Shown: one piece after another, positions 7,488 through 48,681 of the stretch | Layout: the number at the start of each line of letters is the position of its first letter | How positions within the stretch are numbered: position 1 is the first letter of the stretch | NCBI GenBank assembly: GCA_964016885.1 | Contig: OZ024762.1 | Span: 11,594,001-11,658,000, forward strand | DNA: 64,000 bases | Source of the DNA: Eledone cirrhosa | Taxonomy: Eukaryota | Direction of reading: 5' to 3' | The notes under the pieces: model-generated | The model's input: the letters and a program-made list of their open reading frames with translations, nothing else | Told to the model about the DNA's origin: nothing | The model's database searches: none | Program-made: the position numbers and the translations under genes

Positions 7488-8436
7488 CTGAAAGTAGAAG
7501 AAAAAGTAAAGATAATTCATCAACAAGATGGTGTAGGACAGAACAAAAGAGAGACACAAAATAAAAACCCAATCACTGAGGAGGTCACAGAATGTGTGAC
7601 AAAAGAGGTTTAACAATATATAAACAACCATCTGGTTATTGAACAAACCAACCAGAAATTTATAATAAATTAAAGTGAAAACCAACATGACCCATATATT
7701 CATATACATACATATATATATATATATATATATATATACATATATATGTGTGTGTGTGTTAAGTATTTCCGAAGAAAAAGAGTGCTCTATGGATTGACTA
7801 GGGTCTTGAAAACTTTGGTAATGGAGTAGTTATATATTGTGTTGTTCACTTTCTAATCTAAATAAAATATATATTGGTTGGTGTTAGGAAGGGCATCCAG
7901 CCGTAGAAAACCTGCCAGATAGTCCTATACGAGCGAGACACAGTCACCCGAGCAATTTTGCCTCAAGTGGGACAGTTCCCGTCTAACCCATGCTAGCATG
8001 GAAGATAGACGTTAAACGACAATGATGATGATATATGTATATATATAGATATATATTTGTCAGTGTACAGTAACAGCTGTGTGACAAAACTTTTCTAATA
8101 AATATATTTTAACTTTTAACAAGTATTTTATTAGTTTAGTCTGAATCTACAGCCAGGTATTCAAATTGAACATGTTGGTGTTATTGACATTATCCATGAA
8201 TTATTGCCAGTCCAAACATGTATCGTCTTATCACCATCACCATCATTATAAACATCGCCATTAATATTACCACTACCATTATAATAATCATATATATATA
8301 TATATATATATATATATATATATATATATATATATATATATATATATATGGAAAGTTATATTTAAATTGTTGGGTTAACAACGAGTAAATATTTATAACT
8401 GATATAAAAGCACTCAACAAGTATTTGGAGTATATT

Positions 8437-8764
8437 TATGATATTAAATAAATGGAAACTATATTTATAAAACCATATTTATTTCGTTATACATATTTCA
8501 GGGATATCATATTAACAATATGTTATGCCATCCTCAGACAAAATACAATATAAACAGTCTTATAAATAAATAGATACGACATACCTTTCAATCACCTTGC
8601 ATTTGGTGATTGAAAGGTATGTCGTATCTATTTATTTATAAGACTGTTTATATTGTATTTTGTCTGAGGATGGCATAACATATTGTTAATATGATATCCC
8701 TGAAATATATATAACGAAATAAATATGGTTTTATAAATATAGTTTCCATTTATTTAATATCATA
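8437..8764. mobile_element. Fold-back element: 160-bp arms, 8-nt loop, hammerhead motif in each arm (+ 8656-8721; - 8480-8545)
   Basis: Arms differ at one visible position; TATTTTGT-CTGAGGA-stem II-GAAA-TATATATA-ACGAAATA; unfolded family copy at 24460-24610. Confidence 0.85.
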
Positions 8765-8990
8765 TATTTATTATAAGAACAGCTTAAAGTTTAAGCAAAG
8801 AATATATATATATATATAATCAACTATATCAAATAGCGCATGTCTGTCAGACAGGACAAATCTTAATTTTAATTTTGGATATATATATATAGCGAGAGAG
8901 AGAGAGAGAATATAATTTTGGTAGTATATATATATATATATATACACACACATATATAGGCTTTGGGTTTTGGATCCCTGTATATATATA

Positions 8991-9092
8991 TACAGGGTGT
9001 CCCTCCAAAATGTATACACTTTGATTACTTGTACAGGCAATATTTATTAGAATGCTGTTGGAGTGTATATACGTTTTTGGGGGGGACCCTAT
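8991..9092. mobile_element. Tc1/mariner-type MITE (TA-CAGGGTGTCC...GGACACCCTG-TA consensus); copies 23147-23263, 24178-24268, 25603-25684; partial copies 27566-27610, 28420-28474, 47335-47422
   Basis: ~30-bp TIRs containing AAAATGTATACAC, inserted at TA within (TA)n. Confidence 0.8.
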
Positions 9093-9129
9093 ATATATAT
9101 ATATAGGCGGTGGGTTTTGGATCCCCTCG

Positions 9130-9455
9130 CTGAAAGCGCGTGGCGTGGCTTAGTCGTTGTGATTTCGATTCCCGGATAGGGCGATGCATTGTGTCCTTGA
9201 GCAAGATATTTTATTTCTTTGCTTCAGTTTAATCAGCCGTAGAAATTAGTTGCGATGTGAGTGTATAGTGTATATAAAAGTTGTTATGTCACTGGTGCCA
9301 ACCTGTATATAACTTTGGACAACATCGGTGACGAGGAAACGGGAGAGAGGTATACATGGGCGACTGCTGGTCTACTACAAAAACACCTTACCCGGAATTT
9401 TATGTCTCGGAGGGGTACTTTCTAGGTGCAAATTCGATCATCATTCGTAACTGAA
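9130..9455 (+). mobile_element. tRNA-derived SINE with alternative 3' half; related minus-strand copy at 54640-55180
   Basis: Family A-type head, then CACTGGTGCCAA...TTGGACAACATC...GGGCGACTGCTGGTCT...TTTCTAGGTGCAA and a poly-T tail. Confidence 0.7.
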
Positions 9456-9902
9456 GGTTTTTTTTTTTTTTTTACCTTTACCTATATATATACATGTGTG
9501 TGCGTGCGTGCTGTATTTCGTATACGAAAACTGTCACTTTCGTTGTTTATACTTCGTCTACCACTAACGAAAGATCAGGAAGGCTAATTAAAACTGATTT
9601 CTAACATTAATTTGTTAAAAACCCGCCGAGTTTGATTGCTTCAGTAACCACGAGAGCTTGTTTCGCCAGTTTCTTGAGTTTGGCGTTTATTTTGAAAAAT
9701 AAAAGCAACTTAATTTTTTAAAAAAGGCTTTACTTTTTATTTTATTTTAAAGATCTTCACTCAATGCAGAATATTTTACAGAATTTCGAGAGGAGGGGAA
9801 AAATAACGAAACCGGGTTTGTAAAAAATAAAGGCAAAGGCTGTCTCGATCGTTGCTAATTCTACACTAGAATAAAAAGAAAACAAAAACAAATAAGACTT
9901 AC

Positions 9903-45600: not shown

Positions 45601-46444
45601 TAGTAGTGGTAGTAGTGGTGTTGGTCGCAGTAGTAGTGGTGGTGGTAGTGGTGGTGGTCGCAGTAGTAGTGGTGGTGGTGTTGGTAGTGGTGGTGGTGTT
45701 GGTCGTAGTAGTAGTGGTGGTGGTGGTGGTGGTGGTGGTGTTGGTCGTAGTAGTAGTGGTGGTGGTGTTGGTACTAGTGGTAGTGGTGGTGGTGTTGGTG
45801 GTAGTAGTAGTGGTGGTGGTGGTGTTGGTGGTAGTAGTAGTGGTGGTGGTGGTGTTGGTGGTAGTAGTGGTGGTGGTGGTGTTGGTGGTGTTGGTAATAG
45901 TGGTGGTGGTGGTGGTGGTGGTGTTGGTAATAGTGGTGGTGGTGGTGGTGGTGGTAGTGGTAATAGTGGTGGTGGTGGCGTTGGTGGTAGTGGTAGTGGC
46001 GGTGATGGTGATGGTAGTGATGATGGTGGTAGTAGCAGTGGTGGTGATGGTAGTAGTGATACTGATGATGGTGGTGGTAGTGGTGGTAGTAGTAATAGTA
46101 GTAGTGGTAGTGATAATGCCAGTGGTAGTATTATTAACGACCTCTTAATTAGCTAAAGAAGCTTTAGGGTTTATGAAAGTGACCCTGCAGGGTGGGAGCG
46201 AATGTGGAATTGTAAAGTTCATACATCTCTCCTAAGAGCAAATCAGTGTAAAACACCCCTCCCCACCCCACACACACACACCTGCACCCAATGTTCCCCA
46301 TCATCATCATCATCATCAACATCAGCTTGTTAACATCTGTTAACATCTGTTTTCCCTGCTAGCATGGGTTGGACATGTCGTTAAAGACCAGTCAGTACTC
46401 CAACAGTGCCTTTGACCTCCAGGTGGGCCAGGATCCCCGCATAT

Positions 46445-46856
46445 GGGATGGTACAGGGACCCAAATCACCAGGGGTCCCTACTGTTGTGGATGGCCAACT
46501 TTGGCCTGATAGCACTGGTTAGGCGATGGTACAGGGACCCAAAATACTAGGGGTCCCTACTGGTGTGGGTGGCCAACTCCGGCCTGATAGCAGTGGTTAG
46601 GGGATGGTACAGGGACCCAAAATACTAGGGGTCCCTATTGGTGTGGGTGGCCAACTCTGGCCTGATAGCAGTGGTTAGGGGATGGTACAGGGACCCAAAA
46701 TACTAGGGGTCCCTACTGGTGTGGGTGGCCAACTCTGGCCTGATAGCAGTGGTTAGGGGATGGTACAGGGACCCAAAATACTAGGGGTCCCTATTGGTGT
46801 GGGTGGCCAACTCTGTCCTGATAGCAGTAATTAGGGGGATGGTACAGGGACCAAAA
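46445..46856. repeat. 78-bp GC-rich minisatellite x~5.3 with internal hairpin
   Basis: ATGGTACAGGGACCC at 46448, 46526, 46604...; AGGGACCC-N-GGGTCCCT in each unit. Confidence 0.9.
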
Positions 46857-47946
46857 TCAGGTTCAACAATAATTCTCATAGGAATTTGGGAATCCAGTTA
46901 TGGCATCTCGTCATTGCAAACTTAAATTTTTCTGAAATATTTGTTCTAGCACCTGGCTAAGTCTACCTCGGTCTTAATCTCCAGGCAGAAGGAACTCTGT
47001 ATGGTAACCAAACGTCTTTATCTGTCTAGCTATGTCTACATAATTAATTAACATTTCTTATCCTATCGTACTAAACAGCCAGGCTGAAGTTAAACAGACA
47101 GAGGATATATATATCTGCGTATACATACATATATATATATATATATATATATATACATGCATACATACATATATACACACATACATACATATATCAGCTA
47201 TACATACATACATGCATCATATATACATACACACATACAGGTAAATATGGTGGTGTGTGTATATATATATATATATATATAGAAGGGGGTAATATATAGT
47301 GGTGTATGTATATGTGTATATATATATAATATATACACAAAAATGTATGTCCCCCCAAAAAATGTATACACGCTTCAACAGCATTCTAATAAATATTTGT
47401 ATACATTTTTTGGAACACCCTATATATTTCATTTCATTCATTTCATTTCATTTTACGTCCGCTTTTCCCTGCTTGCAAGGGTGGGACGGGAACTGATTCT
47501 GGCTTGATTTCTACAGCTGGTTGCCCTTCCTAACACCAACCTCATTTACAGTGAGTGCTGGGTGCTTTTTTGCCGTGGCACCTCCACGACCACTTTGCAG
47601 TGGAATGATAGGGACCCCAGTCCCTATCATCTCATTTCTACAGCTGAGTAAACTGGAGCAATATGAAATAAAGTGTCTTGCTCAAGGAAACAACAAATCA
47701 CCCGGTCTGAGAATTGAACTCACAACCTTTCGATTGCAAGCCCAATGCTCTAACCACTAAGCCATGTGCCTCCATATATATATATATGTATATATATATG
47801 TCAAGCTATCTAACATATGTCATTACTTTAAGGTGACGCAACCTTATTGAGTGCTTTGCTGCACATTCCTCATTGTATATCGTTAGCTTGGCCACAGCCA
47901 AAACTTCGATTTTACTAAACTTCCATTTGTATGTATATATATATAT

Positions 47947-48245
47947 ATATGAATAAAGTTAGTCCTTCATCAGTGATCTTCCAACCTTCATTGGTATTTC
48001 ATCGCTTTAAAGACCATATACCTCCGGTTGGTGCAAGCAATGGCTAAAGAAAGTCATTGGGACACATAAATAAGGGGAACGAGCGAGACTGTAAACAAAC
48101 AAAGATGGTAAAGCACCAACCGGAGGTATATGGTCTTTAAAGCGATGAAATACCAATGAAGGTTGGAAGATCACTGATGAAGGACTAACTTTATTCATAT
48201 GTAACCCATTTGCAACCACGCAGCACGTTTGTTTTCATATTCACA
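47947..48245. mobile_element. Inverted-repeat element (~88-bp arms, 78-bp spacer) in (TA)n; single-arm relative at 795-930
   Basis: 47947-48034 is the reverse complement of 48113-48200. Confidence 0.75.
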
Positions 48246-48347
48246 TATATATATATACTGTCTATATAATCAATGAGTTATTTAATTTGTTGATTATTCA
48301 ACAAATTTAGTTTATAACAGATTAGAACAGGATTCTTCTGGAGTATA

Positions 48348-48681
48348 ATATCAATAATATTAATAAATAGAAGCTATATTTATAAAACCATATTTATTTT
48401 ATTATATATATTTCAAGGGTACCAAAATTTTGGTACGCTCTCATCAGATAAAATACAAAAGTTGGTTTACAGATAGTGACATATCTAGATAAGAACTTAA
48501 TGTTGTGACTATTCAAATAGAACTCACAACATTAAGTTCTTATCTGGATATGTCACCATCTGTAAACCAACTTTTGCATTTTATCTGAGAGCGTACCAAA
48601 ATTTTGGTACCCTTGAAATATATATAAAAAAATAAATATGGTTTTATATAGATAGCTTCCATTTATTAATATTATTGATAT
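48348..48681. mobile_element. Fold-back element with ~160-bp arms; intact HHR on - (48395-48455), + copy lacks 3 nt of the core
   Basis: TATTTTAT-CTGATGA-GAGCGTACCAAAatTTTGGTACCCTT-GAAA-TATATATA-ATAAAATA; 15-nt spacer 48509-48523. Confidence 0.85.

What the first reader, a model, noticed from the sequence alone, without database searches (positions are those of the whole stretch)
8349..48681. Most hammerhead elements are fold-back or 5'-inverted insertions
Seen: near-perfect palindromes at 8437-8764 (160-bp arms), 14771-14880, 14942-15331 (194-bp arms), 25952-26072 and 48348-48681. Inversions with short duplicated or deleted junctions occur at 23541-23821 (colinear control 27776-28047), 25430-25540, 28864-29147 and 7760-7865. 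In each, one arm runs on into a unique 3' tail ending in microsatellite while the other stops short. Established: inverted pLTR arrangements are typical of Penelope insertions. Inference: insertion is resolved by cDNA snap-back or a second priming event, seeding the genome with long hairpins that carry a ribozyme on each strand.
Basis: partly seen in the sequence, partly recalled or inferred. Interest (0 to 1): 0.75.

Follow-up and report, generated by a model that had tools for sequence, protein, structure and literature searches.

The report
Twin-primed Penelope retroelement hairpins
These DNA hairpins are real, very common stumps of Penelope-like jumping genes, a layout already described, and their fixed ends suggest that both cut ends of the target DNA likely prime a separate copy of one RNA, with the two copies then joined back to back.

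Summary
All five palindromes and four inversions are present; 7760-7865 is the weakest. They are short insertions of several Penelope-like element (PLE) families in (TA)n. Two families were traced to RT plus GIY-YIG frames: one has Hydra-clade motifs, the other is very young and has an intact 905-aa frame. Head-to-head pairs far outnumber those of SINEs (80 among 353 pieces vs 3 among 463). In 81 of 93 pairs one arm ends at the family's 3' end and the other at a second fixed site 30-91 nt upstream. Short arms stop at a TATA/Inr start site. Snap-back alone fails: in 25 of 67 clean pairs each arm holds sequence the other lacks, and 6 of 9 exact dyads leave no room for a hairpin. The architecture is published; the twin-priming mechanism is inferred, and this scan reached it earlier in this and other genomes. 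Reads did not bridge a centre.

The parts
7760..7865 (.). Family G: inverted tail piece (about 7760-7797) plus sense arm 7808-7864 ending at site 2; non-overlapping junction; only the 3' half of a hammerhead
   Evidence: matches to 63277-63299 and 63362-63307; weakest case
8352..8770 (.). Family B head-to-head insertion: tail arm 8352-8596 (minus strand, ends at site 1), site-2 arm 8605-8770 (plus strand, 81 nt short); hammerhead cores at 8537(-) and 8664(+), both CTGAGGA with a weak stem II base
14693..14880 (.). Family C head-to-head insertion: tail arm 14693-14825 (-), site-2 arm 14826-14880 (+); abutting centre 1 nt inside the Inr start; type I hammerhead on both strands (14820-, 14831+)
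14942..15371 (.). Family D (young autonomous PLE, no hammerhead found): site-2 arm 14942-15135 (-), tail arm 15138-15371 (+), 40-nt tail
23541..23821 (.). Family A (Hydra-clade motifs): inverted site-2 arm 23541-23699 carrying the hammerhead (23634-), short tail arm 23700-23821; 22-nt duplication; each arm has private sequence
25425..25540 (.). Family C: inverted site-2 arm with hammerhead (25481-) plus tail-only arm 25487-25539; arms do not overlap
25952..26149 (.). Family E head-to-head insertion: site-2 arm 25952-26009 (-), tail arm 26011-26149 (+); no hammerhead core
27774..28047 (+). Family A single-arm (colinear) copy running from the start-site region to site 1; hammerhead at 27836
28864..29148 (.). 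Family F: inverted tail arm 28866-28978, site-2 arm 28979-29148 with hammerhead (29048+); 25-nt duplication
32866..33021 (.).
47944..48244 (.).
48271..48686 (.). Family B' head-to-head insertion: tail arm 48271-48510 (-, intact core at 48447), 13-nt spacer, site-2 arm 48524-48686 (+, core broken by a 3-nt loss)
62994..63224 (.).

Best explanation
These are insertions of endonuclease-bearing Penelope-like retrotransposons whose two arms are likely made by two separate reverse-transcription events, each primed by one cut end of a (TA)n target, most likely on the same RNA. Shown: the families carry RT and GIY-YIG frames (A, D); the arms sit head to head between TA tracts; one arm ends at the family's site 1 and the other at a fixed site 2; the arms share source variants; short arms stop at a TATA/Inr position. 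Inferred: the endonuclease cuts both strands; the RT starts at two internal RNA sites 30-91 nt apart; because these sites lie only 130-320 nt from the transcript's 5' end in the upstream pseudo-LTR, both cDNAs often run off at the same end; the two cDNA 3' ends are then joined by annealing at short self-complementary words or by end joining with small templated inserts. Equal stop points give palindromes, unequal ones give spacer, duplication or deletion junctions, and failure of one side gives single arms. The hammerhead is a passenger of the pseudo-LTR and is not needed for the geometry.
For: Two fixed 3' ends in each family with a complete tail: A 0/-91, B 0/-81, C -3/-63, D 0/-40, E 0/-77, F 0/-86 to -89, G 0/-64 to -67, H2 0/-57, H10 0/-30. 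81 of 93 pairs are site 1 plus site 2, one is site 1 plus site 1, none is site 2 plus site 2. Of 67 clean junctions, 36 are symmetric within 15 nt, 20 have the site-2 arm longer, 5 have no overlap and 6 have the tail arm longer, so 25 cannot be one arm copied from the other. Arms of one locus disagree at family-polymorphic sites far less than independent sources would: D 3 of 38 vs 13 expected, A 37 of 443 vs 206, E 21 of 194 vs 60, asymmetric pairs included. TATA-to-Inr spacing of 30-31 nt in A, B and C, and Inr-like words in D and F, coincide with the 5' limits of short arms. In young family D, 9 of 30 junctions are exact dyads, all on native self-complementary words of 2-8 nt (about 5e-7 by chance, post hoc), and 6 allow no stem with a 3-nt loop. 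Family D lacks a hammerhead yet gives 18 two-armed copies among 22 resolved. In vitro a PLE protein cuts and extends both strands and starts RT at two internal sites that match the tail (PMC11167929).
Against: No biochemical test was done here. Same-RNA copying needs displacement of one cDNA, which is assumed. Shared variants could also reflect one subfamily being active at a time, and family C shows only weak concordance (21 of 47 vs 28 expected). Asymmetric pairs could arise from palindromes by later deletion. A few centres sit on a natural 7-bp hairpin, and L054 has two full tails, as snap-back predicts. About half of all insertions are single-armed (121 of 211 outside the window). Start sites are inferred from motifs, not mapped; D, F and H2 show no TATA box at the expected spacing, and my E reference showed no motif (TATA-like and Inr-like words were seen only by eye in other E copies). 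Two full-length A copies begin at about -277 and -286, upstream of the inferred start. No read or contig bridged a window centre.
Confidence: 0.7

Rival explanations
1. One cDNA is made from site 1, folds back on itself at its 3' end and copies itself up to site 2 (snap-back or self-priming; the reader's first option and, on an antisense template, the published hypothesis).
For: 36 of 67 clean junctions are near-symmetric; arms share variants; family A centres at -253/-266 sit on a 7-bp native hairpin and L054 has both tails; PMC3846280 proposes self-priming.
Against: 25 of 67 pairs have private sequence in both arms; 6 of 9 exact dyads in D leave no loop; the fixed site-2 end is shared by symmetric, spacer and deletion classes and by single arms (21 of 56).
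Confidence: 0.12
2. Two primings occur as in the best explanation, but on two different RNA molecules, and symmetry arises only because both stop at a shared start site or stall site.
For: Fixed sites and private sequence fit equally well; a few pairs disagree at polymorphic sites.
Against: Exact dyads also occur far from the start site (-1211, -1434, -158, -132), and co-existing D variants are rarely mixed within a locus (3 of 38 vs 13 expected).
Confidence: 0.13
3. The palindromes are assembly or library fold-back chimeras.
For: The arms of 14942-15331 are 100% identical; no laid record bridged a centre.
Against: The hairpins are bounded by family-specific sites and TA tracts, not random points. 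Arm-to-arm divergence scales with family age (D 0.2-0.5%, A 4-6%). 40 of 40 listed D tail matches are 100% identical, so identical arms are expected. SINEs in the same DNA are not folded back. Site-2 ends followed by TA and opposite-strand joints at other family loci appear in short-read runs (few records, one study for the contigs).
Confidence: 0.03
4. They are MITE-like DNA transposons, or ribozyme hairpins that move as a palindromic unit.
For: Short inverted repeats in TA; some centres recur (-242 in D twice, -158 twice).
Against: The outer ends are unequal; arm lengths and centres vary from tens of bases to kilobases; the same ends continue into RT-endonuclease frames.
Confidence: 0.02

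Closest known systems
Insertion architecture of endonuclease-positive PLEs: inverted 5'-truncated pseudo-LTR, head-to-head palindromic junction, one-sided 30-40-bp tail (PMC3846280: passages, outline and Discussion read; PMC8557442: passages read)
   Same: Head-to-head arms, one-sided tail, TATA/Inr-like motif in the pseudo-LTR, microsatellite targets, partial tandems (D unit 3133 nt, A unit about 4150 nt).
   Different: Tails here run 30-91 nt. Most copies are pseudo-LTR-only stumps at an extrapolated 2e5 per genome. The data favour two primings over the published self-priming idea.
Hydra clade of C-terminal EN+ PLEs (PMC8557442)
   Same: Family A has RWR(A) at the RWK position, DKT, a CxCX5C linker, CxxC and CxH around the endonuclease E and N, a hammerhead and (TA)n targets.
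   Different: Its unit is about 4.15 kb against 'generally <3 kb'; no tree was built.
Anolis Poseidon element in vitro (PMC11167929; parts 1-2 of 4 read: abstract, whole main text, start of methods)
   Same: Two internal RT start sites bounding the tail, both strands cut and extended, hammerhead dispensable.
   Different: That paper does not explain inverted insertions by two primings in the text I read. Here the start sites border short AT/TA words that could pair with the target (seen in A and D; inference), whereas it reports non-homologous initiation.
L1 twin priming (5' inversions; recalled, not read here)
   Same: Inverted 5' part with small duplications or deletions at the junction; microhomology joins.
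   Different: In L1 the second primer anneals at variable internal sites (recalled). Here it is a fixed family site close to the 3' end, so the arms overlap and give palindromes.
Animal non-LTR retrozymes (bioRxiv 10.64898/2026.07.22.740005, part 1 of 5 read)
   Same: Type I hammerheads tied to PLE pseudo-LTRs; tandem families of this kind occur in the genome sample.
   Different: The window's elements are monomeric arms, not tandem arrays, and D is autonomous and has no hammerhead.

Membership tests
EN+ Penelope-like elements | Single ORF with RT and GIY-YIG endonuclease | tested here: met
   D: intact 905/908-aa frames, Pfam RVT_1 8e-16 and GIY-YIG 3e-5. A: RT and GIY-YIG motifs read by eye in broken copies; Pfam gave no family for two A fragments; 14 homologues of about 700 aa, one with an RVT_1 match.
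EN+ Penelope-like elements | ORF link for families B, C, E, F, G, M | not tested
   Only their 3' parts were reconstructed; they are assigned by shared architecture.
EN+ Penelope-like elements | Pseudo-LTR formed by tandem or partial-tandem units | tested here: met
   Extension of A ran round a unit of about 4152 nt; D copies lie in 3133-nt tandems whose tail runs into the ORF.
EN+ Penelope-like elements | Inverted 5'-truncated copy and one-sided tail | tested here: met
   81 of 93 pairs; 16 of 20 long A copies have an inverted partner.
EN+ Penelope-like elements | Type I hammerhead in the pseudo-LTR | tested here: inconclusive
   Present in A, B, C, F, G (compensatory stem I change in C); absent from the D unit and not found in E; cleavage not tested.
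EN+ Penelope-like elements | Target-site duplication | tested here: inconclusive
   72 of 93 pairs have TA tracts on both sides, which hides duplications, as PMC8557442 notes.
Hydra clade (family A) | RWK-like motif, DKT, CxCX5C linker, CxxC and CxH near E and N, (TA)n target | tested here: met
   Motifs against the description.
Hydra clade (family A) | Phylogenetic placement of the RT | not tested
   No reference PLE set was held; no tree built.
Penelope/Poseidon or Nematis clade (family D) | GxKF, DKG and CCHH-type endonuclease; linker type; RT phylogeny | tested here: inconclusive
   GPKF, DKG and CxxC/HxxxxH are visible; the linker is cysteine-rich but ambiguous; no tree.
MITE / TIR DNA transposon | Equal terminal inverted repeats and a constant body | tested here: not met
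   Outer ends differ by the tail; centres and lengths vary.
Non-LTR retrozyme | Tandem units each with a type I hammerhead | tested here: not met
   The window elements are not among the listed tandem arrays (150 of 230 rows shown) and map as single or paired arms.

The most novel reading that the evidence does not exclude
Penelope-like elements integrate by default through a two-ended mechanism: an RT-endonuclease dimer cuts both target strands and copies one RNA twice from two hard-wired start sites, and the two cDNA ends anneal to each other at tiny self-complementary words. This would explain the tail, the inverted pseudo-LTR and the palindromic junction in one step and replace the published self-priming-on-antisense idea; the young intact family D is a ready substrate to test it.
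Probability: 0.5. Interest if true: 0.65.

Novelty: new member of a known kind. Interest (0 to 1): 0.4.

Why it matters
How PLEs make their inverted, tailed insertions is stated as open in PMC8557442 and PMC11167929. This genome offers an extrapolated 2e5 natural products (90 pairs in 1.19 Mb) from at least nine families, including an apparently active one. Their junctions discriminate between self-priming and twin priming and give concrete predictions for an existing in vitro system. It also means a large load of long hairpins, a possible source of double-stranded RNA and instability (inference), which pipelines could mislabel as MITEs or microRNA-like hairpins. The architecture itself is not new, and the scan has noted the mechanism before.

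Tried and rejected
Rfam scan at E<=1: the 150 of 268 rows shown were microRNA-family matches below their gathering scores, mostly on microsatellites; no hammerhead family was among them, so I used my own motif scans (146 hits in 1.254 Mb vs 8 and 10 in two shuffles). That motif missed family C's long stem III until. Single-strand folds of 11 hammerhead regions were mixed: 4 had z below -2, while the B cores at 8537/8664/24510 and the C cores at 14820/14831 were no better than shuffles. The genome search with the family B tail returned nothing (uninformative). PDB sequence search of the A RT fragment gave only chance hits. Read tests: no RNA holder listed; neither read-laying run bridged a centre with 31 letters on both sides, though one contig matched 48527-48588 with no differences. 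I first took family A for Neptune from recall and dropped this. An early note of 19 of 20 long A copies was a miscount; it is 16 of 20. The idea that 5' ends mark hammerhead cleavage sites was rejected for A, B, C and F, whose arms extend 5' of the core. No arm homogenisation is needed, since arm divergence is about half of between-locus divergence or less in A and D. Junction parses in older families (A, C, E, B) often show false 'insertions' from reference mismatch, so exact-dyad counts use D only. Rows dropped: H3, H6, H9 and the L120 array were left out of the PLE pair counts; 4 pairs whose reference lacks a tail were left out of the site count; 14 of 81 pairs with gaps over 30 nt or mixed references were left out of the geometry count; 54 of 146 motif hits lie outside the classified families. 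Literature searches for a twin-priming account of PLEs: 2 listings, unrelated by title and abstract start; 0; 0; 3 listings, one relevant; some searches were for background. Subscription papers and all supplements were not seen and may hold such a model.
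Full report
Setting. The window lies at G000:C23:11594001-11658000 in a 3.0-Gb animal genome rich in (TA)n and SINEs. To go beyond the window I took 119 stretches of 10 kb at round-number positions, four of them next to the window, and sets of up to 30 loci found with short family queries.

Observation. All five palindromes are present with about the stated arms: 166 nt at 98% (8431-8770), 54 nt at 96% (14771-14880), 194 nt at 100% (14942-15331), 58 nt at 94% (25952-26072) and 163 nt at 91.6% (48348-48681). 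The inversions at 23541 and 28864 have 22- and 25-nt duplications, 25430 has non-overlapping arms, and 7760 rests on one good and one weak match. In each case one arm carries a tail to (TA)n. Three more pairs lie at 32866, 47944 and 62994.

Chance and control. Among 353 pieces of these families in 1.254 Mb, 80 adjacent pairs (gap up to 60 nt) are head to head and 2 tail to tail; among 463 pieces of three SINE-type families the numbers are 3 and 2. Outside the window 90 insertions are two-armed and 121 single (conservative, since singles include old fragments and cross-family hits). Among insertions with a strict hammerhead motif, 41 of 62 are two-armed there, but only 6 of 13 in the window. 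In sets picked by the 3' end alone the two-armed share is 16 of 30 for A, 21 of 30 for E and 18 of 22 resolved for D (8 ran off the locus).

Ribozymes. A type I motif scan gave 146 hits against 8 and 10 in shuffles. Family C has a longer stem III and shows a compensatory stem I change, 4 copies of each form among 11. Of the five palindromes, 8437 and 14771 have a core on both strands, 48348 on one, and 14942 and 25952 on none. The full D unit has no hammerhead. Whole-palindrome RNA folds pair 93-95% of bases, so a read-through transcript would probably mask the ribozyme (inference). Cleavage was not tested.

What the elements are. [quoted passage not shown] Its motifs match the Hydra clade description. 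Family D (14942) has 40 of 40 listed tail matches at 100% identity, 3133-nt tandem units and intact frames of 905 and 908 aa with RVT_1 and GIY-YIG matches, so it is a young, probably active PLE. The other families were not traced to an ORF.

Anatomy. Each family with a complete tail has two 3' end points, 30 to 91 nt apart. Of 93 pairs with a usable reference, 81 combine one of each, one has two tails, none has two site-2 ends, and 11 have a clipped end; 72 have TA tracts on both sides. Long copies follow the same rule: 16 of 20 long A copies have an inverted partner, and either arm may be the long one. Short arms end at a family limit (A about -254 to -267, C -130 to -139, E -130 to -143, D -241 to -256, F about -255, B -273 to -277). 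The limit coincides with an Inr-like word 30-31 nt behind a TATA-like box in A, B and C, and with an Inr-like word alone in D and F. Two full-length A copies start a little further upstream, so the start site is inferred, not mapped.

Mechanism. Of 67 clean junctions, 36 are symmetric within 15 nt, 6 have the tail arm longer, 20 have the site-2 arm longer and 5 do not overlap. In the last 25 each arm holds sequence the other lacks, which one cDNA folding back cannot give without a later deletion. The arms of a locus share source variants (D 3 of 38 discordant vs 13 expected; A 37 of 443 vs 206; E 21 of 194 vs 60; C only 21 of 47 vs 28), in asymmetric pairs too, which points to one RNA or one source locus. 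In D, 9 of 30 junctions (28, plus L288 and the window copy, which that script dropped as duplicates; L294 read) are exact dyads. All nine lie on native self-complementary words of 2-8 nt (about 5e-7 by chance, post hoc), several far from the start site, and six leave no stem with a 3-nt loop. Annealing between two cDNA ends that stopped together explains this; a fold within one strand does not, although two-base DNA loops exist (recalled) and would allow one-pair stems for the 4-nt words. Many other junctions carry short re-copied inserts, as expected of microhomology-type repair (recalled). Against a pure reading: a few A centres lie on a native 7-bp hairpin and L054 has two tails, so snap-back probably occurs as a minor route.

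Artefact test. Logan contigs and RAD-seq reads did not bridge a window centre. They did show site-2 ends followed by TA, opposite-strand joints at other family loci, and one contig identical to 48527-48588. The argument against chimeras is therefore indirect: family-fixed ends, age-scaled arm divergence and unaffected SINEs.

Comparison. Inverted 5'-truncated copies, head-to-head palindromic junctions and one-sided tails are described for PLEs (PMC8557442, passages; PMC3846280, passages and Discussion), and the latter explains them by self-priming on an antisense template. PMC11167929 shows two internal RT start sites and cleavage and extension of both strands in vitro, which fits the two-priming reading. 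Four searches found no paper stating twin priming for PLEs within the held library. PMC13282606 (passages) lists recently active PLE families in one cephalopod genome and has no mention of ribozymes in its main text. Earlier notes of this scan reached the same reading in this genome and others; I had formed mine before looking, and they are not independent evidence.

Verdict. A real and abundant instance of known PLE insertion architecture. The value lies in junction statistics that make an open mechanistic question testable. Interest 0.4.

Noticed in passing
window 24630-24762: Two hammerhead-bearing pieces of an A-like subfamily in tail-to-tail order, the rare polarity.
   Followed up: no
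window 24420-24617 and 24850-24919: Single arms that end at site 2 with no tail partner; 21 of 56 well-conserved single arms are of this kind.
   Followed up: partly
window 8770-8801 and 14591-14631: Fragment of a separate very common repeat abutting the right arm of the 8437 palindrome; the true family B tail is on the left, 8352-8430.
   Followed up: partly
L120:281-3381: Eleven tandem 310-nt units, each with a type I hammerhead, retrozyme-like.
   Followed up: no
L046, L047, L105, L124, L125, L145: Tandem hammerhead families of about 480-530 nt (H6, H9) that also form head-to-head pairs.
   Followed up: no
L310, L311 (G000:C1 near 311.37 and 295.44 Mb): Tandem, intact, near-identical family D units with 905-908-aa frames and no hammerhead: a likely active PLE.
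   Followed up: partly
window 60649-61530 and 41765-42681: Related repeat with an inverted arrangement and an internal 72-nt tandem array at two places; not of the PLE families studied.
   Followed up: no
window 37643-38026: Two tandem 189-nt copies of a SINE-type repeat.
   Followed up: no
family tails (A, B, F, G; e.g. window 27980-27990, 8410-8416, 28919-28926): A short GAGTGCT or GAGCACT word recurs in otherwise unrelated tails and could be a protein-binding signal (seen by eye).
   Followed up: no
119 sampled stretches: 78 near-perfect fold-backs in 1.19 Mb, 64 with a TA tract at an outer end; only 36 belong to the families built, so many more families exist.
   Followed up: partly
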